64,000 nt of DNA from Parcubacteria bacterium RAAC4_OD1_1 (GCA_000505065.1 AWSN01000001.1:559929-623928), one strand, 5' to 3'; positions 45,422-59,797 are shown, numbered from the stretch's first letter. Program-made: numbers and translations. The notes: generated by a model not told the origin, from the sequence alone.

Positions 45422-45508
45422 GGAAGCGTGGCTGAGTGGTTTAAGGCACTTGTCTTGAAAACAAGGGACTATGAAAGTGGTCCGTGAGTTCGAATCTCAC
45501 CGCTTCCG
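45422..45508 (+). tRNA. tRNA-Ser(UGA)
   Basis: GGAAGCG/CGCTTCC, CTTGT-CT TGA AA-ACAAG, long variable arm, GTGAG-TTCGAAT-CTCAC, discriminator G. Confidence 0.96.
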
Positions 45509-45578
45509 CAGGAAAAATAAAGTATCGGAAGACTCATAGGCATATATTTTGATATGTCTATTTGTTTTTTCAACTATT

Positions 45579-45854
45579 CTAAAGATTAGCTCTTAACCAA
45601 TTAACAACTTCTGGTTTAAGATTTAAGCTACCCCAATCTTTACCTATTTCTATAACAAGTAATTTATCATTTGAATGCATTAATGGTTGTAGTCTTCTAG
45701 CTATATCTATCGCTGTTAAATCACTTTTTATTATAAAAACAGATTCAAGTGGTTTAGACCAATATGCAACTTTAGTTATTGCATTTCTTAGATTTTGATA
45801 AGAAGTTATAGGTTGTCCACCTATTAAATCATATGATATTAAATAATTTTTCAT
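45579..45854 (-). CDS. small Cas2/VapD-like ferredoxin-fold protein
   Basis: YLISYDL...PLESVFII...NDKLLVIEI. Confidence 0.55.
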   Translation of the reverse strand: MKNYLISYDLIGGQPITSYQNLRNAITKVAYWSKPLESVFIIKSDLTAIDIARRLQPLMHSNDKLLVIEIGKDWGSLNLKPEVVNWLRANL

Positions 45855-45855
45855 T

Positions 45856-46779
45856 TTAATTAGTTACTTGTTCATTATTTAATAAAGATGAGTCAACCCC
45901 GACCACAGAGGACCCCACAACAACTTCATTTTCTACAATCTCTTTTTCATTATCAAACAACGGAACATAATTCTTTTCTGTTATATATTTTATAAATTCT
46001 TCTAAATTTAGAATCGAAAACAATTTACCTGATTTATCATGAAACTCTTTTACTAAAGATCTTCTTGGAAAAATTTTATCATTTCTCTTTTTTTCTTCCC
46101 AAAAATCATCTTTAGTTTCCTCAGTAACAAGAATTATTGGTTTTGATAAATTTTCTGAATAATCAAGTATCTGAAACCATGCTATTGTATCACCATTACT
46201 TTTACCAATATCTGATACCCCAGGTTGTTTTTTAATTCTTGCTCTTTTATTTATCTCCGATTCTATTGCTGATTTTTTATCATCATCATAATCATTCCCA
46301 ATTTTATCTTTTAAGATTTTTTCTAATCTTTTTAAAATTATGTCATTTTCTGGTTCTCTCCAGTCAGGATTACATTTATTTTTATTAATTTTATTTTTTT
46401 GTCTAGTGATTGTATTTTGTAAATCTTTTACTATAGAGTCTATTTTAAGAGTAAAATGCTCTTGATCATTAAAATAACTTGAATATAAGTCTTTTTCTAA
46501 TGAATCTAATTTCCCAATAACTATTTCTTTTCTTTTAAATTCTTGGTCAATTCTATCTTTTCTATTCTTATAGAATTCACTACAGAATTGATAAGGTATC
46601 CAAACTCTATCTTTTTTCGATAAATCATCCATCATTTTTAAAATAGAATTTCTCTTTTTATTCTTATATCCATACAATCTCAAAAGAGCACACGCATCAA
46701 ATACAAAAATTGCATTTTTCTTCATTCGGATTAATTCTTTCTTTGTTGGGTGATAATATTCCCAAAAACTATCTTTCAT
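45856..46779 (-). CDS. PIN-like domain protein
   Basis: IFVFDACALLRLY, WIPYQ, PG..D, GDTIAWFQIL, VTEETKDDFW, LVKEF. Confidence 0.75.
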   Translation of the reverse strand: MKDSFWEYYHPTKKELIRMKKNAIFVFDACALLRLYGYKNKKRNSILKMMDDLSKKDRVWIPYQFCSEFYKNRKDRIDQEFKRKEIVIGKLDSLEKDLYSSYFNDQEHFTLKIDSIVKDLQNTITRQKNKINKNKCNPDWREPENDIILKRLEKILKDKIGNDYDDDKKSAIESEINKRARIKKQPGVSDIGKSNGDTIAWFQILDYSENLSKPIILVTEETKDDFWEEKKRNDKIFPRRSLVKEFHDKSGKLFSILNLEEFIKYITEKNYVPLFDNEKEIVENEVVVGSSVVGVDSSLLNNEQVTN

Positions 46780-46996: not shown

Positions 46997-47548
46997 CTAA
47001 ATTATATTAATAATTCCATCCATCATCTTAATCTTTGATTTAAAGCATCCCATTAATTCTCTCTTCTCTTCATTTGAACCACTTCTGAGCACATACTTGG
47101 CGTAAGTTTTAAGATTAATTTCCTTATGCTTTTTATTTGAATTATTTATCTCAAGTACTCCTTTATTAAAATTATTTATCCTCTTCGATTCTTCTTCAAA
47201 CTTAATTTGCAATCCAACATCATTCACATCTATTTTATCTATCAACTTTATAAGTTGCTCTATTAACTCTTCTTCTCTTAAATATTCATTCTTACAGTGC
47301 CTATCTTTCGATCTTCCACATCCATAATAAATATATTTAGCTACCGTTCCATTCTTAAGTTTTTTGTATTTCTCTTCAGCTGATATTCCAGAACCACATA
47401 AACCACAGGTCATTAATTTAGTGAATGCAAACTCATGATTCTCTCTTAATTGCTCTTTTGCTTCCTTATTCCACCTTCTTGGATTATACTCACAAGGTTT
47501 TAGAGTATTAATGTCTGCATACTCTATTTTCAAGTTATCTTTCGACAT
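46997..47548 (-). pseudogene. chimera: ParB-like N-terminal stub fused to a large serine recombinase zinc-ribbon/C-terminus
   Basis: INTLKPCEYNPRRW (ParB-N start) joined to FAFTKLMTCGLCGSG...YIYYGC...C.NEYLREEEL; no catalytic resolvase domain. Confidence 0.65.
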
Positions 47549-48417: not shown

Positions 48418-49248
48418 ATGAAAGAGAATATGCCATATAGAAATGATCCACCATTAAACATTAATGTATTTAGACATGGTGAATCAGAATATAAACAAAA
48501 AGATGTATCGATAGAAAATGCAAATGATTTAACCGAGAAAGGAATAGAAGATGTTAAAGATAGCGCGGTAAAATTATCTGAATTAATTAAACCAGAAGAA
48601 GAGGTTGAAATTTGGTCTTCACCTACAAGTAGAACATTACAAACTTCAAAAATAATTAGTGAGACACTAAAAAATAAAGGAATCCACATTAGAGAAAAGG
48701 GGTGTGATAACAATTTTGGAGTCAAAGTTTTTGATCAGCTATCTGAGGTAAAAAATTTTTCATGGAAGCTTTTTTATCCACTTGTTAATGGTGGTGATGT
48801 TGAATTCGAAGGAGAAAAGTTTCTTGTTGATAAAAAATTTACCAATCCACTTGATATTCATCTTAATGAATATTTTTCTAAAAATGGGATAGCTACCATT
48901 GATATAGATTATAAGAAAACATTACCCAGTAATTACGTAAAAGAAATAGATGGATTTGAAAAGTTTACAGATGCAGTAAGAAGAATTATCATACCGCTAT
49001 CAAGATTAAAAAAAATTAAAGATAAACCCTACCGTATAATCATGGTTACACATGATGTTTTTTCTGGATTTATTGCTAATATATTTTCTGCAGGAGAAGA
49101 TAGTGAAAAACATACTATTAATCCGGGAGAATTTATAAACATTGAACGGGATAATGATAAGTTAGTTGCTACTAAAGTTGGAGACTTTAGTGATGGAAAT
49201 AAAGATACTGATATAATTGAAGAATTTAATAATAAGTATGGTTCTTAA
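48418..49248 (+). CDS. histidine phosphatase family protein
   Basis: VFRHGES, LTEKG, WSSPTSRTLQT, MVTH. Confidence 0.88.
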   Translation: MKENMPYRNDPPLNINVFRHGESEYKQKDVSIENANDLTEKGIEDVKDSAVKLSELIKPEEEVEIWSSPTSRTLQTSKIISETLKNKGIHIREKGCDNNFGVKVFDQLSEVKNFSWKLFYPLVNGGDVEFEGEKFLVDKKFTNPLDIHLNEYFSKNGIATIDIDYKKTLPSNYVKEIDGFEKFTDAVRRIIIPLSRLKKIKDKPYRIIMVTHDVFSGFIANIFSAGEDSEKHTINPGEFINIERDNDKLVATKVGDFSDGNKDTDIIEEFNNKYGS

Positions 49249-50502
49249 TTATTTAAAATAAACTTTCCTAATTTTTGAGCCCAATAAAGAAGTAAAATAA
49301 TTTAAAAATTTATTATTACTTTTAGATACTTGATTTAAAGAGATTTTTTTATCATTATTTTTTACCAAAAAAACTCTCGTCCCTAAATTGCATTTATTTA
49401 TATTTGTTATATTTATAGCAAAATTATTAGAACTAATTAGCCCAAGATTATGAGTATGTTTTTTATTTAAAAAGACTGTTGCTTTTTCTGATAAATATCC
49501 TGTATTACCCCATCCTACAGGGATAGTGGCAACCTTTAATTTTTGTTTTGCTACATATTTTTTAAAATATCCAATAGCATCACCCTTACTAACATAATTT
49601 ATATCTGTTATGTGTGTTATCACTGATGAAATAATAGGATTATTTAAAAATCTACCTTTCTTATCTTGAAGAGTCCCATAAATAAGACACCCTGGTCTTA
49701 CAAAAACCTTAACACCAGGTAGAATATCATTAAATATTTTTTTATTATAAGATTTTTTAAAATTAATAATAGCAGAACTATTGGCACAATGTATTGATGA
49801 AATTTTTATCTTACTATAAGATACTTCCTTTAAAATATGTAAAAATTTATCAAACTGAATAGCTGTAAATTTTTTATCTTCGGCATCAGTAAAATGAGTC
49901 CACAAACTTTCTATTTTTATAAAGCTTAATTTAGAAGTATTATGAATTAATTTAAATGCTTTATTTACATTAACACCATATCGATTTAATCCAGTATTAA
50001 TTTGGATATGAACTTTTGCTATTTTATTTTTATCTTTTGCTATTTTATTTAATAAAACCATTAATTCATAAGAGCTAACAGTAATTTCGACATCCAAATC
50101 TAAAAGTTTTGAAAAATGATCATAGAATGGTGGATAAAGCAAAATAATAGGTGTTTTTATTTTATTTTCTCTGAGAATTATGGCTTCATCTATAGAACCA
50201 ACAGCAATTTTATCTGTGCCTAACTTTTCTAATATTTTAGCTATTGGTACTAACCCATGTCCATAAGCATTGGCCTTCAGAACAGAAATTATTCCTATGT
50301 TTAAACCAACTTCACTTGATATTTTTTTATAGTTTTCTTCTAATTGATATAAGTTAATATTCATCCAAGTTAATGGTAAATTATTTTTTTCTATTATTTT
50401 GCTTTTAATATTTTTATTAAAATAATTGTTTATATCAGTATTCCCTCTGATACTGAATAGGCCCCCGTCTTCTTTCTCATAATAAATATTTTCTTTAATC
50501 AT
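49249..50502 (-). CDS. alanine-racemase-family PLP enzyme (divergent)
   Basis: VLKANAYGHG, NTGLNRYG, THF, HCANSSA, VRPG, IGY; GLISSN replaces GRVCMD. Confidence 0.85.
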   Translation of the reverse strand: MIKENIYYEKEDGGLFSIRGNTDINNYFNKNIKSKIIEKNNLPLTWMNINLYQLEENYKKISSEVGLNIGIISVLKANAYGHGLVPIAKILEKLGTDKIAVGSIDEAIILRENKIKTPIILLYPPFYDHFSKLLDLDVEITVSSYELMVLLNKIAKDKNKIAKVHIQINTGLNRYGVNVNKAFKLIHNTSKLSFIKIESLWTHFTDAEDKKFTAIQFDKFLHILKEVSYSKIKISSIHCANSSAIINFKKSYNKKIFNDILPGVKVFVRPGCLIYGTLQDKKGRFLNNPIISSVITHITDINYVSKGDAIGYFKKYVAKQKLKVATIPVGWGNTGYLSEKATVFLNKKHTHNLGLISSNNFAINITNINKCNLGTRVFLVKNNDKKISLNQVSKSNNKFLNYFTSLLGSKIRKVYFK

Positions 50503-50514
50503 ATTAATAAAAAA

Positions 50515-51732
50515 TTAATCAAAACTATAATAAATATTCTTAAATCGTGAATTAAATTTAATTACGTTGTTTTTAATATTTTTCCCTTTTAGTGAATCAT
50601 CTATAAAAATAGCTATTTCTTCCATATCTTTTTCCCTCATACCTCTTCTTGTGATTTCTTGTGTGCCAAGCCTGATAAATAATCTATTCCCCAATCTGTC
50701 ATCAAAATTAGTTGATATATTATTCTTAACAAGGTTGTTGTATGTTTTCTTTCTATTACCAAAATTATCTATATACAAATGAACCTGATGATTTAATGAA
50801 TACAAACCGTCAGGCGTTCTCCTTACTTCATAACCAAGACTTTCTAAACTCGCCCCTAGCTGATTAGAATTTTTTATAATTTGTTTCGCATACTCTTTAC
50901 CATATTTTTTCATTTCAAGAATGGATATAGATAATGATATAAGATGATGTGTATGAGAAGAAGAAACCAGTCCTTTGCTAATAACATCATTTACTTTCTT
51001 GGCTAATTTTTTATTTTTAAAAGCAATTAATCCTTTTTGTGGCCCTGGAAGAGTTTTGTGTGTATTTGCACAAATAATATCAGCTCCTTCTTTGAGAGGT
51101 GATTGAAATTGCCCACCCATCATTAAACCTATTGTGTGGCTTGCATCATATATAATAATAGCCTTATTGCCTAATGATTTTCTTAGTACCTTAATATTTA
51201 TTGGATTAATACAATATGAGATATCTAAATATAATAGTTTACACTTTTTTTCTTTAAAAATATCCTTAATTTTTTTACTATCAAAATCTAAAGATTCTAA
51301 ATTAAATGGGGCATAGACATATTTTCTGCCAGTTCTTTTTAAAATGTGACTTGTTGCAAAATGCCCTCCATCTTTATGTGCTACAATCATTACAGTATCA
51401 CCTGGATTAGATAAAGAAAGTATAGCGCACATCATTGCATGCACACCAGAAAGACAAAGTGGTGTAAAACTCTCACAGTTTATCATTTTTTTCATTGATG
51501 AATTTGCTTCATCTATTAAATCCTGAATATCTTTAAGTCCAAGACATGTGAAAGGATTCCAATCTATAATTCCTTTTACACCTGAACCAAAGAAATATCT
51601 CTCAGATAATTTACTGAATAAAAAGCCATTGGCTGTCTCAGAAAGCTGATTTTCATATGCAGTTAAATGCAAGAAATTACTATTCCTTTTTTCTAACTTT
51701 TTTATATTACTAATTAATTTATTTATTTTCAT
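50515..51732 (-). CDS. SHMT-fold PLP enzyme, L-threonine-transaldolase-like
   Basis: LTAYEN, LSGVHAM, GGHFAT, YDASHTIGL, ANTHKTLPGPQKG, RLGTQEITRRG. Confidence 0.72.
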   Translation of the reverse strand: MKINKLISNIKKLEKRNSNFLHLTAYENQLSETANGFLFSKLSERYFFGSGVKGIIDWNPFTCLGLKDIQDLIDEANSSMKKMINCESFTPLCLSGVHAMMCAILSLSNPGDTVMIVAHKDGGHFATSHILKRTGRKYVYAPFNLESLDFDSKKIKDIFKEKKCKLLYLDISYCINPINIKVLRKSLGNKAIIIYDASHTIGLMMGGQFQSPLKEGADIICANTHKTLPGPQKGLIAFKNKKLAKKVNDVISKGLVSSSHTHHLISLSISILEMKKYGKEYAKQIIKNSNQLGASLESLGYEVRRTPDGLYSLNHQVHLYIDNFGNRKKTYNNLVKNNISTNFDDRLGNRLFIRLGTQEITRRGMREKDMEEIAIFIDDSLKGKNIKNNVIKFNSRFKNIYYSFD

Positions 51733-51735
51733 AAC

Positions 51736-53112
51736 TTATATTTTTACGTATAAAATCATTAACTTATTGCTATTTCGCATTTTTATAAGTACATTTTTAA
51801 TCTCTTGTAAGCTAATCTTATTATAATCAATTTCAATCTTATCTATTTTTTTATCAATATTATAAATACTGGAAATTAATTTTTGCCCACCAGTGGAAAC
51901 AGAACCATTATTATCTATAACAATAATCCCCATTGAAATCTTTCTAGAAACAGCTTCAGATAGTGCTTGAATTCCGCTATGTAAAAAAGAAGCATCCCCA
52001 GTAATACAAAATGGATATTGAACTCCCCCTAAAACAAGACCAATGCCATTCCCGACAGAAGATCCTAAACATAGGCAAGAATCAATCACATGTGTCGATT
52101 CAACTGTGAATTGTCCTACGTCACCAACTACAAAACTTGGTTTTATAGATTTAATTGCTTTAAATAATTTAGATAAATTATCCCAAACAATCCAATTCTT
52201 AGATTCATCAGAAATAATTTTAATCTTTGATTTTAGGACCAGATTCTTATTTTTGTTTTGAATTAAATTCTCAATTTTTTTGAAGACTAAATCATCTCCT
52301 TGTTCAAGAACAACAACTTCATTTTTTTTATTAATAAATTTTTGAATTGTTTTTTTGGGGATGGGATATGTTTCAATAAATAATTTATCCCAGTATTTAT
52401 ACTTTTTTAAATATGACTCCTCTAATGAAGCCCCAACAGCTATAACACCTAATTTACTTTTTTTATATGGTATATACTTTATAAATTTATCAACAAAATT
52501 ATCGATCTCAATATTTTTTTGGTCTAATCTTTTTTTCTGTTCTAACCAATAATTTGGGTAAATTATATATTTATTACTATTTTTGGATATCTTTATTTTA
52601 TCTAATTTTATTTTGTCTAATTTTTTATAATCATCAATTAAATTAAAAAAATTATTTGTAAGACGTATAACAACAGGAGTATCATATTTTTCTGATAAAT
52701 AAAAAGACTGTCGTGCAATATTATATGCAGAATTTAATGAATTAGGCTCAAACCACATCCCACCAAAGAAATCATGGTAATGCCTTGAATCTTGTCTTTC
52801 TTGTGATGCAACAACATCAACATCTTCTGTAATAACAATAACCATCCCCCCATTAACTCCAGATAATAATGAATGTAAAAATGGGTCAGATGCAACATTT
52901 AGCCCAATATTTTTTATTGTTAAAAGACTTCTTTTTCCTGACAAACTAATCCCATAAGATATATCAAAAGCTACTCTTTCATTCAATGATATTCTATCCC
53001 CGTTAAGATTATCAAAAATTTCATGACTATAAAAACCTGGGAAATTTATAACATTATCAACTCCGCCATCAATAAAACCGTCACACAATGTTTTTATAGA
53101 TTTTTTAATCAT
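51736..53112 (-). CDS. ThDP-dependent enzyme (IorA-like, no ferredoxin domain)
   Basis: NERVAF, KNIGLNVASD, QDSR, GDASFLHSG...IDNNGSVSTGGQ. Confidence 0.82.
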   Translation of the reverse strand: MIKKSIKTLCDGFIDGGVDNVINFPGFYSHEIFDNLNGDRISLNERVAFDISYGISLSGKRSLLTIKNIGLNVASDPFLHSLLSGVNGGMVIVITEDVDVVASQERQDSRHYHDFFGGMWFEPNSLNSAYNIARQSFYLSEKYDTPVVIRLTNNFFNLIDDYKKLDKIKLDKIKISKNSNKYIIYPNYWLEQKKRLDQKNIEIDNFVDKFIKYIPYKKSKLGVIAVGASLEESYLKKYKYWDKLFIETYPIPKKTIQKFINKKNEVVVLEQGDDLVFKKIENLIQNKNKNLVLKSKIKIISDESKNWIVWDNLSKLFKAIKSIKPSFVVGDVGQFTVESTHVIDSCLCLGSSVGNGIGLVLGGVQYPFCITGDASFLHSGIQALSEAVSRKISMGIIVIDNNGSVSTGGQKLISSIYNIDKKIDKIEIDYNKISLQEIKNVLIKMRNSNKLMILYVKI

Positions 53113-54584
53113 ATTTCAATTTTAGATTTTATTAATGGGCTATCATTATTTTCAAAATTAATATTTGATTTATAAATTAAACTCATTATTTTTGCGGGAA
53201 TATCATGTGATGTTATATTAGACAACATAGAATTTATATCAATAAAACCTCCTAAATAATTTAAAAATTCTAATATCACCAATTCTTTTGCGGTTTCATG
53301 AAATAATTTATTATCCTGAAAGTCATTTTCCTTATCTAAATCTTTGAGATTATAAACTTTTAATGGTAATTCATCTTTGCTAAACATTTTTGCATTTCTA
53401 AAAACATAAATATCAAAATGATTATTCCCCCCTAAATTATAATCGTGAACAGTATTTTTATCTTGCATATCATTAGATTGATAATTATGTATTTGTATAC
53501 ACTGAAATGGACCTTGTTGTATATAATAATATTGATGCTTTACTCTTCCGTTTCCTTTATATAAATCATCATTGGGCTTAATCCATGCTCTTCTTGAAAA
53601 ACTGTTGTGAAGTAAATTTACTGATATATTACAAATATTTATATTATTTTTTGTTAATTTTATATTAGAAAAAATATCTATTTCCCCATAGTTTTTATAT
53701 AGTTCTTTAAGCTCTATTTCATCTCTTCTTTTACATTTATTATAAACTTCTTTACCAAAATAATTCTCATAATCTTTTTGCCCAAATTGAACCAATAAAC
53801 CTTCTGGATTAAGAAAAGATGAATATACCTCTATTCCATCTGGTTCTTTATCTTTTACTAAACCATTTTTATAGAGTTGCCAAATTATATCAAAAATATG
53901 ATAACTACTATGTGACCCCTTACCATAACCCAAATTATATGGATGATATGTTTGTTCAACTATTTCATCTGGAAATATCCATACCCCATCTGAGTGCATT
54001 GCCTGTATTGATGTTACTGGTGCATTAAATTTTTCTGAAACTTCTTTAATTAAATCAAATACTTTTAAATATCCTTTTTCATATCTTCGCTGTACATTTA
54101 TAGAAAAAACTGTTTCTTTTTCTTTTTGTAATTTTAAATAAGCTTTCAGTATTTCCTCATAGTCATCATAAATACCATCAGCCTGTTTTATATTATGACT
54201 AACATTTTTTCTTGTTGAAATTGGTTTATCCATTAAAATATTTAAACCTTGACTAATTGCCCATAATGCATAACTTTTATGAGCTAATGGTTCCGTAGAA
54301 ATAACAACACCTGTTATATTATTTTCTTTAACAGCAATAGAAAGTAAATCTCTGTTTTCTTCTGATAATTCTTGAGTATTATCATAATCCTCAATGTAAA
54401 ACATTTTTAGGTTAAAATTATTAGAATCAAGATAGTCTTCTATATTATTTTTTTTACTTTTAAAATCTACTCCTAATTTTAAACAAAAAGGCATATTATC
54501 CATATGTTTAAACAATGTTGGAATATAAATTCTCTTTGCATGCAATCCAACCCCTATTATCATTATGTTATTACATATGGGCAT
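53109..54584 (-). CDS. Gfo/Idh/MocA family oxidoreductase
   Basis: IIGVGLHA, ISTEPLAH, ILMDKP, NVQRRY, HSSYHIFD. Confidence 0.82.
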   Translation of the reverse strand: MPICNNIMIIGVGLHAKRIYIPTLFKHMDNMPFCLKLGVDFKSKKNNIEDYLDSNNFNLKMFYIEDYDNTQELSEENRDLLSIAVKENNITGVVISTEPLAHKSYALWAISQGLNILMDKPISTRKNVSHNIKQADGIYDDYEEILKAYLKLQKEKETVFSINVQRRYEKGYLKVFDLIKEVSEKFNAPVTSIQAMHSDGVWIFPDEIVEQTYHPYNLGYGKGSHSSYHIFDIIWQLYKNGLVKDKEPDGIEVYSSFLNPEGLLVQFGQKDYENYFGKEVYNKCKRRDEIELKELYKNYGEIDIFSNIKLTKNNINICNISVNLLHNSFSRRAWIKPNDDLYKGNGRVKHQYYYIQQGPFQCIQIHNYQSNDMQDKNTVHDYNLGGNNHFDIYVFRNAKMFSKDELPLKVYNLKDLDKENDFQDNKLFHETAKELVILEFLNYLGGFIDINSMLSNITSHDIPAKIMSLIYKSNINFENNDSPLIKSKIEI

Positions 54585-54670
54585 ATAATATATAGTAACT
54601 ATATCATTATCTGTTAAAAATTAAAATGTATACCTTATGTTGTTGATTGGCCATATGATATAATTACTAA

Positions 54671-55660
54671 ATGAGTAAACATGATATTTATATTAAAAAA
54701 ATTATAAAATTTAAAGTTGGTGGTAATCTATTGAAATCTAAAAGAATATTGGGTGGACATAGTGGTTATGTATATGCAGTTAGCGTAAAATTAAATTCTA
54801 ATATAAATGAATACATCATAAAATTATCAAATATAATAGGTTCAAAATCATTGAGGGATGAAAAAAATGAGCAACGAGTATATGGAGGTCATTCAAAAAG
54901 TCTAGCTAAGGTTCATAATCTTCTTAAAAAGAAAAATTTAAAAACATTTACTTTAATATCACACTCGTTACCAAACAAAGAAATACCATATTTCTACCAA
55001 TTAATTTCTAAATTAAATGGATTTTCTGTGAGAGAACATTTAGTGATTAATAATATTAATAAAAAAGAATTATTTGAATTAGCTGGTGTTGAATTTGCTA
55101 AATTACATTTAATAACAAGAAATTATGACGGTTGGGTGGAACAAGATACTCCATATAATATAAGCTGGGAGGAATCTTTTTTTTCAGCATTAGATTTTAG
55201 ATTAAAATATTTAATAGAAAATAAATATTTTAATGACAAAGATTCAAAAAAATTAATTCATTTTATTAAAAATAAAAAAATAAAATGGACGTCACCCAAA
55301 GAATATGTTTTTTCTCATGTGGATGGGTTACAAGGGATGGTTGAGTATAAAAAAAATAATTGGATATTTAATGGACATATTGATTTAGAAGATTATAGAT
55401 TTACTGATCAAAGATTTGTTTTAGCTGGATTTGAAATTGGAGCAAATTATTCAACAAAAGAAGCTCCTATTAATTTTTGGGACGGTTATTTAAAATTTAA
55501 AAAGATAGATAAGAGTTACCATGAATTAAAAGATTTATTTAAAGTATTTTACTTTATGTCTTGGATACATATGACTGCTCTTAGTTTAAAAAATGATAAA
55601 TTGTCTCGAAAAATAAGTAAAATTTATATTAAAAAAATAAAGATATTAATGATTAAATAA
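54671..55660 (+). CDS. aminoglycoside-phosphotransferase/kinase-like protein
   Basis: GGHSGYVY, YIIK, FAKLH, FSHVD, GHIDLED. Confidence 0.7.
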   Translation: MSKHDIYIKKIIKFKVGGNLLKSKRILGGHSGYVYAVSVKLNSNINEYIIKLSNIIGSKSLRDEKNEQRVYGGHSKSLAKVHNLLKKKNLKTFTLISHSLPNKEIPYFYQLISKLNGFSVREHLVINNINKKELFELAGVEFAKLHLITRNYDGWVEQDTPYNISWEESFFSALDFRLKYLIENKYFNDKDSKKLIHFIKNKKIKWTSPKEYVFSHVDGLQGMVEYKKNNWIFNGHIDLEDYRFTDQRFVLAGFEIGANYSTKEAPINFWDGYLKFKKIDKSYHELKDLFKVFYFMSWIHMTALSLKNDKLSRKISKIYIKKIKILMIK

Positions 55661-55665
55661 ATGAT

Positions 55666-55760
55666 ATGTCTTTATCCTTAGAATCAGCTCAAAATTATTT
55701 AGAAAAAAGAAGTAAAAGTTGTCATAGATAGACAACTTGGTTCTCCTCATCCAAAATATG
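55666..55760 (+). pseudogene. frameshifted 5' fragment of an inorganic pyrophosphatase-like gene
   Basis: MSLSLESAQNYLEK / EVKVVIDRQLGSPHPKY across an A-run frameshift. Confidence 0.45.
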
Positions 55761-56171
55761 AATATAATAAAGAAAATAAAAGAATTAAATTTACCCAAAG
55801 ACCAATATATAGTTGTTGGTAGTGGTATTTTAGACATGTTAGGAATTAGAAAATCTAATGATATAGATATTGCAGTTACAAAAGATTTATTCGATAAAAT
55901 GAGAAAAACTGATGAATGGGAAGAAGTAGAAAAATACAATAAAATTTTTCTCAAAAAAGAAGGTTTTGATATTATCCCTCAGTTAGATTGGGAAAATTAT
56001 ACCACCACCACAGAAGAAGCAATATCTAGTGCTTTAATAATAGAGGGTATTCCATTTATGAATTTAAATGAACTTATTAAATTCAAAACTGCATTAGGAA
56101 GAGAAAAAGATTTTAAGGACATAGAACTTATTAAAGAGTATTCAACTAAGAAACTAGAAAAAAGGCCTTAG
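55758..56171 (+). CDS. nucleotidyltransferase-like hypothetical protein
   Basis: VVGSG..LGIRKSNDIDI, LGREKDFKDI. Confidence 0.7.
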   Translation: MNIIKKIKELNLPKDQYIVVGSGILDMLGIRKSNDIDIAVTKDLFDKMRKTDEWEEVEKYNKIFLKKEGFDIIPQLDWENYTTTTEEAISSALIIEGIPFMNLNELIKFKTALGREKDFKDIELIKEYSTKKLEKRP

Positions 56172-56487: not shown

Positions 56488-56521
56488 CGAATCTCACCGC
56501 TTTCACAGAAAAATAAAGTAT
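56488..56521 (+). repeat. degenerate attR of tRNA-Ser
   Basis: cgaatctcaccgctttcacagaaaaataaagtat vs cgaatctcaccgcttccgcaggaaaaataaagtat. Confidence 0.75.
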
Positions 56522-56567: not shown

Positions 56568-57551
56568 ATGAAAGAATTATTAAAAATAAACAAGGTAGAA
56601 AATATTGATAATGAGGAAAAAAATACCCCAGAGTTAGAACAGAACCCTGATTTAGCTAATGCTGCATATGAAACTTTAGGTTTTAAAGGAAAAGATTTTG
56701 TTTATACTTCTGAATTAATAGATGAGGTTATCGAAAAACCTGATTTTGAAGAATTATTACCGGTTGCTCAAATTTTTAAACATAAAGATAGAATAAATCA
56801 TACCAAAGTTTTTTTGGGTAAAAATGTTCGATCGGTAAATTTTTTAAATCAAAACACAATAGCTCTTGGTCAAACAACAAATTTTATAGAGAATAATAAA
56901 ATAGCCAATAATATTTTTGTTTTTGATAAAAAATATTACGAAGCACTAGGTAAACCTGAAAGAGAAAGTCAGCAGTCCACTTTATTACACGAAGAGATAC
57001 ACAGATATACTTCATTTATAATTGGAGAATATAAAAAAATAGCCAAATTCCCTGGTATTGAATATTGTGAAAAATTTAAGGAACATTTTAATTCCCTTGG
57101 TATTCATGATGTGTCTTTAGAAATTGAATTCTTAAAAGAATATTTTAACTTATTTGAAATATATAAAAATCAAGGAGGATGGCTTAATTCAATTGAGTTT
57201 ATTACATATGGGTTAACAAATAAAGGAGGGGTTGATTTTCTAAAAAATATTAGATTGCATGGCAGAGAACTTTCTAAAAGGAGTCAAGATTCACTTAATA
57301 ATCTCACACTATATGATGCTCTATTAGATTTATTTAAATATTACTATACAAACTTATCTGATGATGTTTATGCTTCTTCTACAGATACAGTTAAGTTAAA
57401 ATTTGACAGCGTTTTAGTATCTACAGAACAAAAAAATAAAGCTGAGCAAATATATTTAGAATATATAAAAACTTTAGCAAGTAAAAACGATATAACAAAA
57501 GAAGGATTTATCGATTTTATAAAAACAAAAGAATTAGGTTCACATATTTAG
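56568..57551 (+). CDS. hypothetical protein with HExxH zincin-like motif
   Basis: TLLHEEIHRYT ... IEFITYGLTN. Confidence 0.65.
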   Translation: MKELLKINKVENIDNEEKNTPELEQNPDLANAAYETLGFKGKDFVYTSELIDEVIEKPDFEELLPVAQIFKHKDRINHTKVFLGKNVRSVNFLNQNTIALGQTTNFIENNKIANNIFVFDKKYYEALGKPERESQQSTLLHEEIHRYTSFIIGEYKKIAKFPGIEYCEKFKEHFNSLGIHDVSLEIEFLKEYFNLFEIYKNQGGWLNSIEFITYGLTNKGGVDFLKNIRLHGRELSKRSQDSLNNLTLYDALLDLFKYYYTNLSDDVYASSTDTVKLKFDSVLVSTEQKNKAEQIYLEYIKTLASKNDITKEGFIDFIKTKELGSHI

Positions 57552-57572
57552 CTTATTATCTTTAAAATATAC

Positions 57573-57625
57573 TAAAATACTATACAGGGTTTGAGTTTGT
57601 GGGTATCGAAATCACCACCTCCGTA
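57573..57625 (+). repeat. degenerate tRNA-3'-like direct repeat B
   Basis: taaaatactatacagggtttgagtttgtgggtatcgaaatcaccacctccgta. Confidence 0.55.
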
Positions 57626-57655
57626 ATTATATAATCTTTATGTTATAATATATCT

Positions 57656-58453
57656 ATGGAAATATTTCCAAAAAATCGCAATGAAACAAAAGATCAAAAT
57701 CAAATTGAATCTTTAAATCCAATTATTTCTAAACAGTCTGAAGTTATTAATAGGCAAACTGAAACAGAAAACTCTCAAGAAAGAGATAATCTTATTAATT
57801 CAAAAAGGGATGAGATTCTAGATATGCTTGATGATAGAAAAAATAATATTGAGAATGAAGAAGAAATAAAAGAAGGTATTGATTTTGTGTTTGAACAAAA
57901 TTCAGAATTAGAAAAAATCGGAACGAAAGAACAGTATTCTAAATATTTAGATACTATATTTCCTGACAGTAAAGTAACAGATATTGTTTATCATGGAACT
58001 GTTAATAATTTTGATGAATTTAATCTTAATTATTTTAATTCAAATTCTGGATCTAGAGACAGAAAAGATCCTGCTTTTTATTTTACTAGTAAAAGTATAG
58101 TTGCTAAAGATTTTTTATTTAAAAAAAATGGGAAAATACTATCTTCTTTACTTAATATAAAAAATCCAGAAATAATAGATGGTAAACATAAAAACCTTAT
58201 AGGCAAAAGAGGAGTAACCACATTCGTTGATATTCCAGGTTTTATAAAAAATGGTAAAGATGGAATGGTTATTAATGATGTTTTGGATATAGATCCAAAA
58301 GCTGGGTTAAAGAGAGTAATTGATGGTATTGGAAATGAAGAATATTATTCTAATATTTATGCAACTTTTGGAAATAATCAGTCTTTTATTCTAGGATCTA
58401 AACAAGATTTAGAAAATTTCAAAAAATTTCTTGAAAATAATAAAGACTCATAG
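57656..58453 (+). CDS. ADP-ribosyltransferase-like (ART-PolyVal-like) domain protein
   Basis: IVYHGT..FDEF, AFYFT, LNIKNP, DGMVI, YATF. Confidence 0.62.
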   Translation: MEIFPKNRNETKDQNQIESLNPIISKQSEVINRQTETENSQERDNLINSKRDEILDMLDDRKNNIENEEEIKEGIDFVFEQNSELEKIGTKEQYSKYLDTIFPDSKVTDIVYHGTVNNFDEFNLNYFNSNSGSRDRKDPAFYFTSKSIVAKDFLFKKNGKILSSLLNIKNPEIIDGKHKNLIGKRGVTTFVDIPGFIKNGKDGMVINDVLDIDPKAGLKRVIDGIGNEEYYSNIYATFGNNQSFILGSKQDLENFKKFLENNKDS

Positions 58454-58470
58454 TCCTAGTTTATAGACTC

Positions 58471-58524
58471 TAAAATACCCTTATTAACATTAGTATCGTA
58501 AGTACTGAACCCATATGGCTTGTA
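58471..58524 (+). repeat. degenerate direct repeat C
   Basis: taaaatacccttattaacattagtatcgtaagtactgaacccatatggcttgta. Confidence 0.45.
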
Positions 58525-58538
58525 TTTAAATTTTACTA

Positions 58539-58577
58539 TTTTAAAAAACAACCTGCAAAACAGGTTGTTTTTTAAAA
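58539..58577. terminator. bidirectional terminator
   Basis: ttttaaaaaacaacctg-caaaa-caggttgttttttaaaa. Confidence 0.7.
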
Positions 58578-58588
58578 TTAATTTTTAT

Positions 58589-59797
58589 CTAGATTTCATC
58601 TAATGCTTCATCTACTAGATCCAAAGATTCTTCAGCTAGATCTTTCGCTTCTTCATAATCTTCTTCATCAAAAGCTTCTTCAGCATCATCTAGTAAATCT
58701 TTCGCTTCATCAAGTAAGTCTTCAGCATCATCAACGTCTTCTCCATCTTCATCAGCCTCATTTATTTCATCATCCGCATCATTTATTGCATCTTTTGCGT
58801 CATCTATTGTTTCTTCTGCATCATCTTTGTCACTATTTTTACCTATTGCATCAATGGCATCATTTGCTAAATCTTTTGCTTCGTCGGCTAAATCTTCTGC
58901 TTCTTCATAATCTTCTTCATCAAAAGCTTCTTTTGATTTTTCTAGTGTGTCATTGGCATCATCTAATATTTCTTCTGCTTCATCTATATCTTTATCATTA
59001 TCTTCAGCCTCGTCAATCTTGTCTTTAGCCTCATCGATTTTATCTTCTGCTTTATCTATAATATTTTCTACTTCATCTTTTAAAGATTCTCCACCTGCAT
59101 CTTCAAAAGCATCTTCTGCATTCTTGTATGCATCATCAGCGTAATCATAAGCATCACTATAATCTTTATCTATAAGAGCAATAATTGCGTCAAATAAATC
59201 TTCTTTAGCATCCTCTAGGTTACCTTCAGATGAAGAAGTATTTTCATCACTATCCTCAATCTGATCTTCTGCGTCGTTAATCATCACTATTGCTTCCTTT
59301 ATTCTTTTCATAGCTTTTCCTTGCTCTCCTGTATTGGGGATAGTTGTAGATGGGGTATTTGTAGTTTCGTCTGGCTTACATTTTTTACCAGTTGTAATAT
59401 CATATATAGCAGATGAAGAACAATCAGTTGAAACAGTATTTGTATTTGTCGTATTAGAAGTATTACTATTAGTAGTTTTGATTAATGAATTATATTTCAT
59501 TCTAGATTTCATCCCAAAATATCCTTTGGATGGAGTTATGTTGTTTGCTATTTGCCAGCGGATAAGAGCTTTTTGTGTTAACTCTCCAAAATTTTCAGTT
59601 TCATTCCCCAAAGAGCCCACCCCAGAAGAAGATATTGTATATCCAGAATTATTTAGATATTCTTGTAAGCAACGAACATCTTCACCTTTAGAATCAATTT
59701 CTAAATCTCTAGTAAATTCACAACTAGATGCACTTACATTTAAAGCTAAAAACCCAACGATAAAAATAAATAATGTTTTAAAAATTTTTGTATACAT
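58589..59797 (-). CDS. exported peptidoglycan-binding protein with acidic helical repeats
   Basis: Signal peptide; GEDVRCLQEYLN..FGELTQKALIRWQ..GYFG; three A/D/E-rich helical repeats. Confidence 0.82.
   Translation of the reverse strand: MYTKIFKTLFIFIVGFLALNVSASSCEFTRDLEIDSKGEDVRCLQEYLNNSGYTISSSGVGSLGNETENFGELTQKALIRWQIANNITPSKGYFGMKSRMKYNSLIKTTNSNTSNTTNTNTVSTDCSSSAIYDITTGKKCKPDETTNTPSTTIPNTGEQGKAMKRIKEAIVMINDAEDQIEDSDENTSSSEGNLEDAKEDLFDAIIALIDKDYSDAYDYADDAYKNAEDAFEDAGGESLKDEVENIIDKAEDKIDEAKDKIDEAEDNDKDIDEAEEILDDANDTLEKSKEAFDEEDYEEAEDLADEAKDLANDAIDAIGKNSDKDDAEETIDDAKDAINDADDEINEADEDGEDVDDAEDLLDEAKDLLDDAEEAFDEEDYEEAKDLAEESLDLVDEALDEI

What the first reader, a model, noticed from the sequence alone, without database searches (positions are those of the whole stretch)
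48418..55660. Compact biosynthetic cluster for a non-canonical (D-)beta-hydroxy amino acid in a CPR-type genome
Seen: an operon of oxidoreductase > ThDP enzyme > SHMT-fold enzyme > racemase (gaps of -4, 3 and 12 nt), with a divergent kinase and a convergent histidine phosphatase, on an island. The SHMT-fold protein has NTHKTLPGP/YDASH/GGHFAT rather than SHMT's TTHKT/D.AH/GGHLT and lacks YAEGYP. The ThDP protein lacks the ferredoxin domain and has no beta subunit nearby. Established: in obafluorin biosynthesis a ThDP decarboxylase makes an aldehyde that an L-threonine transaldolase converts to a beta-hydroxy amino acid. Inference: similar chemistry plus epimerisation and phospho-protection/activation, with no NRPS. 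The product could be an antimetabolite or cell-wall modifier, unexpected in a biosynthetically minimal lineage.
Basis: partly seen in the sequence, partly recalled or inferred. Interest (0 to 1): 0.85.

Follow-up and report, generated by a model that had tools for sequence, protein, structure and literature searches.

The report
Mobile antibiotic-like pathway in ultra-small bacteria
An 11-kb island inserted at a tRNA gene of an ultra-small (Patescibacteria) bacterium carries a rare, recurring enzyme set that likely builds a non-standard amino acid on a sugar- or nucleoside-derived aldehyde, and four related clusters have each separately picked up a spare proline-tRNA synthetase, which suggests the product poisons that enzyme.

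Summary
In detail: genes, gaps (-4, 3, 12 nt), motifs and island (att repeats at tRNA-Ser; empty site in relatives). The PLP enzyme is not GlyA. It lacks the folate-site residues, groups apart from GlyA and matches fluorothreonine transaldolase motifs; the genome has its own glyA and alr. The ThDP protein is not an obafluorin-type decarboxylase. It is a 2-oxoacid:ferredoxin oxidoreductase scaffold stripped of all Fe-S ligands, and one homologue is naturally fused to the oxidoreductase. The conserved unit is oxidoreductase + ThDP + transaldolase. The racemase marks one subtype, the kinase and phosphatase are lineage extras, and most transaldolase homologues stand alone. New clues: four racemase-type clusters each carry an extra ProRS, and the four are not one clade (AU p=0.0002). 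The other subtype and the oxidoreductase family travel with NUDIX and nucleotide kinases. Best reading (0.45): a ProRS-directed antimetabolite built by albomycin-like logic (transaldolase plus epimerase), with no NRPS; the substrate is unknown. This window's genome has no extra ProRS.

The parts
45422..45509 (+). tRNA-Ser(TGA), integration site; its 3' end plus 16 nt (45491-45525) is attL
46997..47548 (-). Remnant of a large serine recombinase (zinc-ribbon part only)
   Evidence: PF13408 E 2e-9; clusters with 431-aa recombinases of L031/L065/L159
48418..49248 (+). Histidine phosphatase (branch 1, RHG motif); lineage-specific accessory gene
   Evidence: PF00300 E 1.7e-9; in 2 of 160 related loci
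49249..50502 (-). Alanine-racemase-fold PLP enzyme with both catalytic bases (K76, Y312) but a remodelled pocket; likely C-alpha epimerase for the pathway product
   Evidence: TIGR00492 227 bits over cut-off 168; GLISSN for GR-CMD/MN, GWG for GYxDG, Q for the carbamylated Lys position, conserved Tyr of NYE/PYE lost; only 28% identical to the genome's own Alr
50515..51732 (-). SHMT-fold PLP enzyme of the L-threonine transaldolase type (FTase-like motifs); not GlyA
   Evidence: TIGR04506 273 bits vs SHMT 200, both under cut-off; keeps Y46/H124/D196/K226/R354, lacks the GlyA Glu (F48), Ser (Y26), His (T127) and NKN Asn (D344); apart from GlyA in tree, 100*
51736..53112 (-). ThDP enzyme: IorA/PFOR scaffold (domains I, II, VI) without Fe-S ligands or ferredoxin domain; likely 2-oxo-acid decarboxylase or carboligase
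   Evidence: TIGR03336 205 bits, under cut-off 651; CxGCPH, GDIGC and RPC cysteines absent, E45/R110/GD...N kept; model pLDDT 95, 441-449 of 458 residues align to PFOR, Z 23.5-24.1
53109..54584 (-). Gfo/Idh/MocA-fold NAD(P) oxidoreductase of an uncharacterised ~490-aa family (DKP motif); fused to the ThDP enzyme in P0396
   Evidence: ties among sugar/NDP-sugar dehydrogenases, Z 28-31; fusion
54671..55660 (+). APH-like phosphotransferase (HVD and DLE motifs, Asn of the Brenner motif missing); likely self-protection or activation
   Evidence: Atlas 0.98 to PF01636 clusters; in 3 of 160 loci; sequences
55737..56171 (+). Nucleotidyltransferase-like protein (weak DUF6036); N-terminal half of an NTase-NUDIX fusion in L113
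56488..56521 (+). attR: diverged copy of the tRNA-Ser 3' end and following bases
   Evidence: 91% over 35 nt, E 3.5e-5; also found

Best explanation
The island carries a horizontally moving three-enzyme core (Gfo oxidoreductase, Fe-S-free ThDP enzyme, SHMT-fold PLP enzyme) plus a racemase-fold gene, and it likely makes a non-standard amino-acid antimetabolite predicted to inhibit prolyl-tRNA synthetase. Shown: gene content, mobility, loss of the folate and Fe-S residues, the oxidoreductase-ThDP fusion, and independent capture of an extra ProRS by four racemase-type clusters. Inferred steps: (1) the oxidoreductase oxidises a hydroxyl of a phosphorylated sugar-acid or nucleoside-linked substrate to a 2-oxo acid; (2) the ThDP enzyme, unable to pass electrons to ferredoxin, decarboxylates it to an aldehyde; (3) the PLP enzyme cleaves L-threonine and adds the glycyl unit to that aldehyde, giving an L-threo-beta-hydroxy-alpha-amino acid; (4) the Alr-fold enzyme inverts C-alpha, as AbmD does after AbmH in albomycin; (5) the product, probably a prolyl-adenylate or proline mimic, is tolerated through a spare ProRS in some producers or through phosphorylation/dephosphorylation by the APH-like kinase and phosphatase in this lineage.
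For: PLP enzyme; the ObiH catalytic set H131/D204/K234/R366 named in PMC10495429 maps onto H124/D196/K226/R354. ThDP enzyme: (CxxC in 2 of 100 family members; E45 and R110 in 100 of 100). Coupling: fusion P0396/P0522/P0523; 32 of 86 ThDP clusters share a contig length with a listed Gfo hit, against 0.45 by chance; 16 of 20 ThDP-bearing loci also hold the Gfo gene. ProRS: adjacent in 4 of 9 racemase loci (L034, L035, L036, L043). All four genomes hold another proS, against 1 of 34 control genomes with both types. The four copies need 4 changes on the tree and one clade is rejected, p-AU 0.00018. They are full length with intact motifs; three drift more than most resident copies, two at the same Ala of the FAGA loop. 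Phosphorylated or nucleotide substrate: all 6 racemase-free lineages carry NUDIX plus a dNK-like P-loop protein, mostly with a TMP-kinase-like gene; 3 of the 6 Gfo genomes without the core have NUDIX plus NMP kinases beside it and 2 more an APH-like protein; a Bacillus homologue is fused to NUDIX. Precedent read as passages: AbmH transaldolase, AbmD epimerase and resistant AbmK (PMC9032320); extra cluster aaRS as self-resistance in ascamycin and SB-203208 (PMC12945691).
Against: No enzyme was assayed and the substrate is unknown. This genome has no extra ProRS, so the target is borrowed from relatives. Of the four ProRS cases, G401 is labelled Nitrospirota (contig possibly misbinned) and G404's resident proS has an in-frame stop near codon 213, so only G402 and G403 are clean duplications. 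The three type-B genomes checked show no extra class IIa synthetase. A family profile scores the archaeal SHMT structure (233.7 bits) above the solved transaldolase (211.9), and PMC10495429 reports that DbTTA from the FTase cluster showed no activity. 140 of 160 PLP loci lack the ThDP gene (many are short contigs), including 88%-identical ones, so the PLP enzyme may have a stand-alone job. The Gfo fold search cannot name a substrate (ties at Z 28-31). Two racemase homologues (L036, L043) lack the Arg at the Alr carboxylate-binding position. No transporter lies on the island.
Confidence: 0.45

Rival explanations
1. One reading: a free, small beta-hydroxy amino acid made from a central-metabolic 2-oxo acid with no nucleoside part. 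Examples are hydroxypyruvate to glycolaldehyde to 4-hydroxythreonine, or oxaloacetate to malonic semialdehyde to 3-hydroxyglutamate and on to a 3-hydroxyproline-type ring (with the Gfo protein as imine reductase), acting as a proline analogue.
For: The closest characterised motif match is FTase, which takes a two-carbon aldehyde (PMC8072733 part 2). R110, the 2-oxo-acid-binding Arg position of the scaffold (role recalled), is invariant. Changes in two cluster ProRS copies fall in the FAGA loop and WQEGH motif, which I recall as lining the proline pocket. Proline-analogue (azetidine-2-carboxylate) synthases are already reported in CPR (PMC11794875 passages).
Against: It does not explain NUDIX plus nucleotide-kinase genes in all 6 type-B lineages or around core-free Gfo genes. 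A D-epimer would be a poor ProRS substrate analogue (inference).
Confidence: 0.25
2. A detoxification or catabolic cassette run in the opposite direction: phosphatase/NUDIX and racemase convert an environmental D-amino-acid or aminoacyl-nucleoside toxin, the PLP enzyme cleaves it, the oxidoreductase and ThDP enzyme dispose of the fragments, and the spare ProRS, GNAT and kinase genes are resistance cargo.
For: All accessory genes (APH-like kinase, GNAT, NUDIX, duplicate target) are classical resistance types. No exporter lies on the island. Most PLP homologues stand alone. An oral strain has lost the ThDP-to-Gfo block but kept NUDIX and the PLP gene (L179).
Against: Characterised enzymes with these PLP motifs are biosynthetic (PMC10495429, PMC8072733). 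A rare four-enzyme degradation route is costly in a 694-kb genome, and a spare target alone would give resistance.
Confidence: 0.15
3. The pathway makes an amino-acid-bearing sugar or D-amino acid that decorates a surface glycan or peptidoglycan.
For: GT2 glycosyltransferases lie beside the core in L042 and L120. Top Gfo folds include NDP-sugar dehydrogenases. Some stand-alone PLP homologues sit in glycan-export loci (earlier notes e1-1309803, unchecked).
Against: No ligase, glycosyltransferase or flippase on this island. The genome has its own alr and ddl far away. It does not explain proS capture.
Confidence: 0.1
4. Ordinary spare housekeeping genes (GlyA, Alr, IorA) swept together on an island.
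For: Database names say glycine hydroxymethyltransferase and IorA; Alr passes its TIGR cut-off; archaeal SHMT is the top profile hit.
Against: The folate-site Glu is replaced in all 128 family rows; Fe-S ligands and IorB are absent; resident glyA and alr exist; conserved order and a gene fusion.
Confidence: 0.03

Closest known systems
Albomycin thionucleoside (SB-217452) pathway: AbmH transaldolase, AbmD PLP epimerase, AbmF/AbmK SerRS paralogues, AbmG deoxycytidine-kinase homologue (PMC9032320, passages)
   Same: Threonine transaldolase followed by a PLP epimerase; an extra class II synthetase in the cluster; nucleoside-kinase-like genes in one subtype; no NRPS needed for the warhead.
   Different: ProRS instead of SerRS, captured independently and full length rather than a dedicated transferase; Alr-fold epimerase; aldehyde apparently supplied by a Gfo + ThDP pair; no radical SAM, siderophore or transporter genes.
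Obafluorin AHNB module (ThDP decarboxylase + ObiH/ObaG transaldolase; pathway details recalled, ObiH residues from PMC10495429)
   Same: ThDP enzyme next to an L-threonine transaldolase; catalytic His/Asp/Lys/Arg conserved (alignment to PDB 7k34, identified as ObiH from recall and residue numbering).
   Different: The ThDP enzyme is on the PFOR/IorA scaffold, not the decarboxylase family; no NRPS or chorismate genes; added oxidoreductase and racemase.
4-Fluorothreonine transaldolase (FTase, TIGR04506; S. cattleya pSCAT locus L212)
   Same: Best-scoring curated family (273 bits); shares LHLTA-E, LSG-HAM, GGHF-T, DASHT-GL, ANTHKT-PGPQKG; 33.8% identity.
   Different: Far below the cut-off (650); lacks the C-terminal epimerase-like domain; no fluorinase context.
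Indolepyruvate:ferredoxin oxidoreductase alpha subunit (IorA, TIGR03336) and PFOR
   Same: Domains I, II and VI in the same arrangement (Z 24 over about 445 residues); Glu, Arg and GD...N motif kept.
   Different: All proximal-cluster cysteines, the ferredoxin domain and the partner subunit are absent; linked and sometimes fused to a Gfo oxidoreductase.
Ascamycin (AcmD/AcmF) and SB-203208 (SbzA) clusters (PMC12945691, passages)
   Same: An additional aminoacyl-tRNA synthetase in the cluster gives self-resistance.
   Different: No truncated transferase paralogue here; no transaldolase there.

Membership tests
Serine hydroxymethyltransferase (GlyA) | YAEGYP motif with the folate-chemistry Glu; GGHLTH His; NKN Asn | tested here: not met
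   F48, T127 and D344 at those columns; the Glu is present in 12 of 12 GlyA rows and absent from all type A and B rows and from the commonest residues of the solo rows
Serine hydroxymethyltransferase (GlyA) | Groups with GlyA; passes the family cut-off | tested here: not met
   GlyA is one side of a 100* branch (FastTree); NF000586 200 bits vs cut-off 335. No archaeal SHMT sequence was in the tree, and it is the top PDB profile hit
L-threonine transaldolase (ObiH/LipK/FTase class) | Conserved Tyr55, His131, Asp204, Lys234, Arg366 (ObiH numbering, PMC10495429) | tested here: met
   Y46, H124, D196, K226, R354; invariant in 40 of 40; alignment to 7k34. These residues are shared with SHMT, so they are necessary but not diagnostic
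L-threonine transaldolase (ObiH/LipK/FTase class) | Retro-aldol of L-Thr and transfer of the glycyl unit to an aldehyde; no activity with Gly or Ser | not testable with these tools
   Needs an assay; PMC10495429 found some look-alikes inactive
Fluorothreonine transaldolase (TIGR04506) | Two-domain ~630-aa protein above cut-off 650 | tested here: not met
   405 aa, 273 bits
IorA / 2-oxoacid:ferredoxin oxidoreductase | PYR-TKC-PP scaffold with ThDP motif, Glu and Arg | tested here: met
IorA / 2-oxoacid:ferredoxin oxidoreductase | [4Fe-4S] ligands (CxGC, GDIGC, RPC), ferredoxin domain, partner subunit | tested here: not met
   Absent in alignment with named IorA proteins P0237/P0240; CxxC in 2 of 100 family members
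Obafluorin-type (decarboxylase-family) ThDP enzyme | PYR-TH3-PP domain arrangement as in PDC/BFD/MenD | tested here: not met
   TM about 0.3 and rmsd about 22 A to MenD/BFD/AHAS against whole-length alignment to PFOR
Alanine racemase (Alr) | PLP Lys and Tyr' two-base pair; fold III | tested here: met
   K76 and Y312 invariant in 8 of 8; TIGR00492 over cut-off
Alanine racemase (Alr) | Alanine pocket (GR-CMD, GYxDG, NYE Tyr, carbamylated Lys; roles recalled) | tested here: not met
   G(L/V/P)-S-N, GWG, F(L/V)(N/S) and Gln in the cluster copies, against the conserved motifs in the resident Alr proteins
Gfo/Idh/MocA oxidoreductase | Rossmann plus alpha/beta C-domain; GxG, (E/D)KP, His..Asp | tested here: met
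   EKP is DKP in 121 of 121
Self-resistance by duplicated target aaRS | Extra synthetase copy in the cluster plus resident copy elsewhere | tested here: inconclusive
   Met in relatives G402 and G403, with caveats in G401 and G404; not met in this genome
Self-resistance by duplicated target aaRS | Cluster copy is insensitive to the product | not testable with these tools
   Product unknown
tRNA-integrated genomic island | att direct repeat, recombinase, empty site in kin | tested here: met
   the recombinase is only a remnant

The most novel reading that the evidence does not exclude
Ultra-small episymbiotic bacteria trade a compact, NRPS-free pathway for a new ProRS-inhibiting antibiotic, a D-configured glycyl-sugar or glycyl-nucleoside prolyl-adenylate mimic. 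Its aldehyde is made by an undescribed enzyme class: a pyruvate:ferredoxin-oxidoreductase scaffold that shed its iron-sulfur clusters and became coupled (sometimes fused) to a sugar dehydrogenase. Producers protect themselves by repeatedly capturing foreign proS genes or a kinase, and may use the compound on hosts or competitors.
Probability: 0.3. Interest if true: 0.9.

Novelty: new variant of a known kind. Interest (0 to 1): 0.72.

Why it matters
Patescibacteria are regarded as biosynthetically minimal. A rare mobile pathway with a self-resistance signature would mean some of them make a translation inhibitor, which bears directly on how these episymbionts affect their hosts. The repeated, independent capture of proS names a target that can be tested. 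The Fe-S-free PFOR-type ThDP family (about 100 sequence clusters) is an unassayed enzyme type, and the large CPR transaldolase family is a biocatalysis resource. A sister cluster occurs in proteins named from oral Saccharibacteria taxon 955, a taxon that appears in a co-culture paper (PMC7651992, search listing only), and a natural deletion variant exists (L179), so the question is experimentally reachable.

Tried and rejected
One search was meant to find resident ProRS genes, but its query proved to be ThrRS; I discarded it and repeated the test with TIGR00409. A suspected second short ThrRS in type-B genomes turned out to be the ordinary short bacterial ProRS. The proS two genes from stand-alone PLP genes in L044/L102/L191 is the only proS found in the two genomes checked, so it is not counted as a link. 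A recalled herbicidin parallel (Her4 as SHMT-like) was wrong: the table in PMC6794829 lists it as SAH-hydrolase-like. The idea that the type-B f33 gene is a MilB/BlsM-like nucleotide hydrolase was not supported: Pfam shows only a C-terminal ribbon-helix-helix domain. Phage DNA-modification reading: no homologue of the three core proteins in viral contigs or of the Gfo protein in phage records; this is absence at that sensitivity only. Searches for more clusters found none in 200 genomes of the own family or 400 of G403's class. No RNA holder was listed, which says nothing on expression. The Gfo fold search did not single out a substrate. Binding between the Gfo and ThDP proteins was not modelled and stays open. 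Literature: searches (Patescibacteria + transaldolase + prolyl-tRNA synthetase terms; Saccharibacteria/HMT-955/indolepyruvate; ProRS self-resistance; IOR + decarboxylase + natural product; 0 papers) listed no paper describing this cluster; subscription journals are mostly not covered. One supplementary PDF of PMC10495429 could not be read.

Full report
Observation. The six ORFs, their strands and the gaps of -4, 3 and 12 nt are as described. The window lies in a single-contig 693,530-bp genome of 31% GC. The closest related PLP gene with an organism title (88% identical, L033) is from a Nomurabacteria MAG. The cluster sits on an island. The 3' end of tRNA-Ser (45491-45525) recurs at 56488-56521 (91% over 35 nt), a recombinase remnant lies at 46997-47548, and in 24 of 29 loci from the same genus ruvX follows the tRNA directly; L313 shows malic enzyme-HIT-tRNA-ruvX-dedA with nothing inserted. 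The ThDP gene was found in 0 of 200 other genomes of the family and 0 of 400 other genomes of G403's class; close PLP homologues (E below 1e-130) were in 2 of 400 other phylum genomes. The cluster is therefore rare and patchy.

PLP enzyme. Its best curated family is fluorothreonine transaldolase (273 bits), ahead of SHMT (200), both under cut-off. As a single query, the solved transaldolase 7k34 and M. jannaschii SHMT tie at 162 bits; with a profile the archaeal SHMT leads, 233.7 to 211.9, which counts against a clean assignment. The residues decide more. The Glu of YAEG, present in 12 of 12 GlyA rows, is Phe here, and the GlyA Ser, His and NKN Asn are also replaced, while H98, F125, T127, D170, S198, N223 and S257 match FTase. 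The catalytic set named for ObiH in PMC10495429 (I read parts 2-4 of 8 and searched the supplements) is intact. In a FastTree of 143 rows (173 before collapsing near-identical ones) GlyA is one side of a 100* branch; all 8 racemase-type rows lie within an 11-row group (support 94) that also holds two racemase-free rows and one stand-alone row. The genome has its own glyA. The same paper found some look-alikes, including one from the FTase cluster, inactive, so activity remains inferred.

ThDP enzyme. It resembles IorA (205 bits, cut-off 651). Aligned with named IorA proteins, it lacks CxGCPH, the Cys of GDIGC, the RPC Cys and the ferredoxin domain, but keeps the ThDP Glu (E45), the Arg of QDSRH (R110) and the GD...N motif. 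Across 100 family members E45 and R110 are invariant and only 2 have any CxxC. The model (pLDDT 95) aligns over 441-449 of 458 residues to PFOR (Z 23.5-24.1, rmsd 3.2-3.6) and poorly as a whole to MenD/BFD (TM about 0.3). It is a minimal oxidoreductase scaffold that cannot pass electrons, so decarboxylation to an aldehyde, or carboligation, is the likely chemistry (inference). This differs from the obafluorin decarboxylase type (recalled).

Oxidoreductase and coupling. The 491-aa protein has the Gfo/Idh/MocA fold, with tied best matches among sugar, cyclitol and NDP-sugar dehydrogenases (Z 28-31). Its link to the ThDP enzyme is the tightest in the set. 16 of the 20 ThDP-bearing loci also carry it. 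32 of 86 ThDP clusters share a contig length with one of the 120 listed Gfo hits, against 0.45 by chance (a proxy). A 1007-aa protein with three cluster members fuses the two. Where the Gfo family occurs without the core, it sits with NUDIX and NMP-kinase genes (L325, L327, L328; 3 of 6 such genomes), with APH-like proteins (L326 by Pfam; L329 by eye only), in Streptomyces plasmid clusters beside APH genes, or fused to NUDIX in Bacillus. A phosphorylated or nucleotide substrate is the simplest reading.

What is conserved. Among 160 loci fetched with the PLP alignment (the best 80 of 171 and 80 of 180 confirmed stretches), 20 have ThDP, 16 Gfo, 9 the racemase, 6 all four genes, 3 the kinase and 2 the phosphatase; these counts include duplicates and short contigs. 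Two subtypes emerge. Type A has the racemase: seven lineages (window/L113, L116/117, L118/119, L034, L035, L036, L043). Type B lacks it: six lineages (L042, L056, L076, L085, L120, L176 group), all with NUDIX and a dNK-like P-loop protein, most with a TMP-kinase-like gene, and some with GNAT or GT2.

Racemase. It passes the Alr cut-off and keeps K76 and Y312, but the pocket motifs differ from the resident Alr proteins, and it is only 28% identical to the genome's own Alr. A non-alanine substrate is likely; whether it epimerises is untested, and two homologues lack the Arg of the GxxRxG motif.

The ProRS clue. Four type-A loci have a full-length family-I proS directly beside the core, in three different positions or orientations. 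The two type-A lineages with long flanks and no proS (window/L113, L116/117) have the APH-like kinase and phosphatase instead; L118/119 are too short to tell. Each of the four genomes has another proS: bacterial type in G401, G402 and G404, a second family-I copy in G403. Only 1 of 34 control genomes with family-I proS also has the bacterial type. Against 30 other CPR copies the four need four changes, and one clade is rejected (p-AU 0.00018), so they were captured separately. That pattern fits selection for resistance better than an inherited biosynthetic transferase. They differ from the housekeeping consensus at 3, 9, 17 and 8 of 126 conserved columns (housekeeping range 0-8), two at the same Ala of FAGA. 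Caveats: G401 may be misbinned, G404's resident gene has an in-frame stop, n is small, and this genome has no extra proS. Background adjacency is 3 of 94 core-free loci of 8 kb or more, all one lineage, where it is the only proS found in the two genomes checked.

Mechanism. Most likely (0.45), oxidation and ThDP-dependent decarboxylation of a phosphorylated sugar-acid or nucleoside-linked substrate give an aldehyde, the transaldolase adds a glycyl unit from L-Thr, the Alr-fold enzyme inverts C-alpha, and the product inhibits ProRS. This follows the AbmH-AbmD-AbmK logic of albomycin (PMC9032320, passages) and the extra-synthetase resistance of ascamycin and SB-203208 (PMC12945691, passages). 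Rivals are a small free proline or threonine analogue (0.25), a detoxification cassette (0.15), surface decoration (0.1) and spare housekeeping genes (0.03). Proline-analogue synthases are already reported in CPR (PMC11794875, passages), so CPR antimetabolite genes are not unprecedented. I read part 2 of 6 of PMC8072733, passages of PMC6794829 and PMC7916415, and only the listing of PMC7651992.

Novelty. It works like a transaldolase-based aaRS-inhibitor cluster but is not a member of any described one. The Gfo plus Fe-S-free PFOR-type pair and the repeated proS capture did not appear. Earlier scan notes had called the PLP family transaldolase-like on other DNA and placed Gfo relatives beside AlaRS paralogues (not checked by me); the ThDP look-up returned only this stretch and two word searches returned nothing. 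Verdict: real, a new variant of a known kind, interest 0.72.

Noticed in passing
L179:2354-2357 against L176:5192-9874: A strain variant of the Saccharibacteria type-B cluster has a clean ~4.7-kb deletion of the ThDP, dNK-like, RHH, TMP-kinase-like and Gfo genes, leaving NUDIX and the PLP gene: a natural knockout, or an assembly artefact.
   Followed up: partly
window 45579-46779 (-): A 91-aa protein with a weak Cas2-like hit and a PIN_8 nuclease form a pair at the island's left end; possible toxin-antitoxin or defence module.
   Followed up: no
window 56568-59797: A second accreted block beyond attR and before ruvX: unknown 327-aa gene, ART-PolyVal ADP-ribosyltransferase-like gene (PF18760) and a peptidoglycan-binding acidic-repeat protein; not seen between tRNA and ruvX in relatives.
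   Followed up: no
   Followed up: no
   Followed up: partly
L325:4789-13425: A Gfo homologue in a nucleotide-enzyme cluster with two NUDIX genes, a uridine-kinase-like gene, a radical SAM gene, two TMP-kinase-like genes and CYTH; reminiscent of viperin-plus-kinase modified-nucleotide systems (recalled).
   Followed up: partly
L088, L092, L094, L096, L098: Another recurring cassette around a sister PLP clade: class I/II aminotransferase, HAD phosphatase, GTP-cyclohydrolase-II-like gene and HemA-like reductase, also in a Paenibacillus genome; ArgRS or GluRS nearby in some.
   Followed up: no
L039, L122, L123, L147: Stand-alone-type PLP genes followed by an aminotransferase, Ldh_2 reductase, P-loop kinase and inositol-monophosphatase-like genes: a third cassette.
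   Followed up: no
L033, L114, L115: The closest PLP homologues (88%) sit instead with an EamA transporter and an archaeal-type SAM synthetase, showing recent module swapping.
   Followed up: partly
G404:C98:6091-7332 (L273): The resident bacterial-type proS has an in-frame stop near codon 213; the cluster proS may be displacing it, or this is a sequencing error.
   Followed up: partly
P0208: An Fe-S-free ThDP homologue is named from a Micrarchaeota archaeon (DPANN), suggesting exchange between CPR and DPANN.
   Followed up: no
L208, L209, L211 (Streptomyces/Embleya plasmids): A conserved uncharacterised operon: citrate-lyase-like, MaoC, GNAT, APH, Ldh, LLM monooxygenase, Gfo homologue, APH, PIG-L deacetylase.
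   Followed up: no
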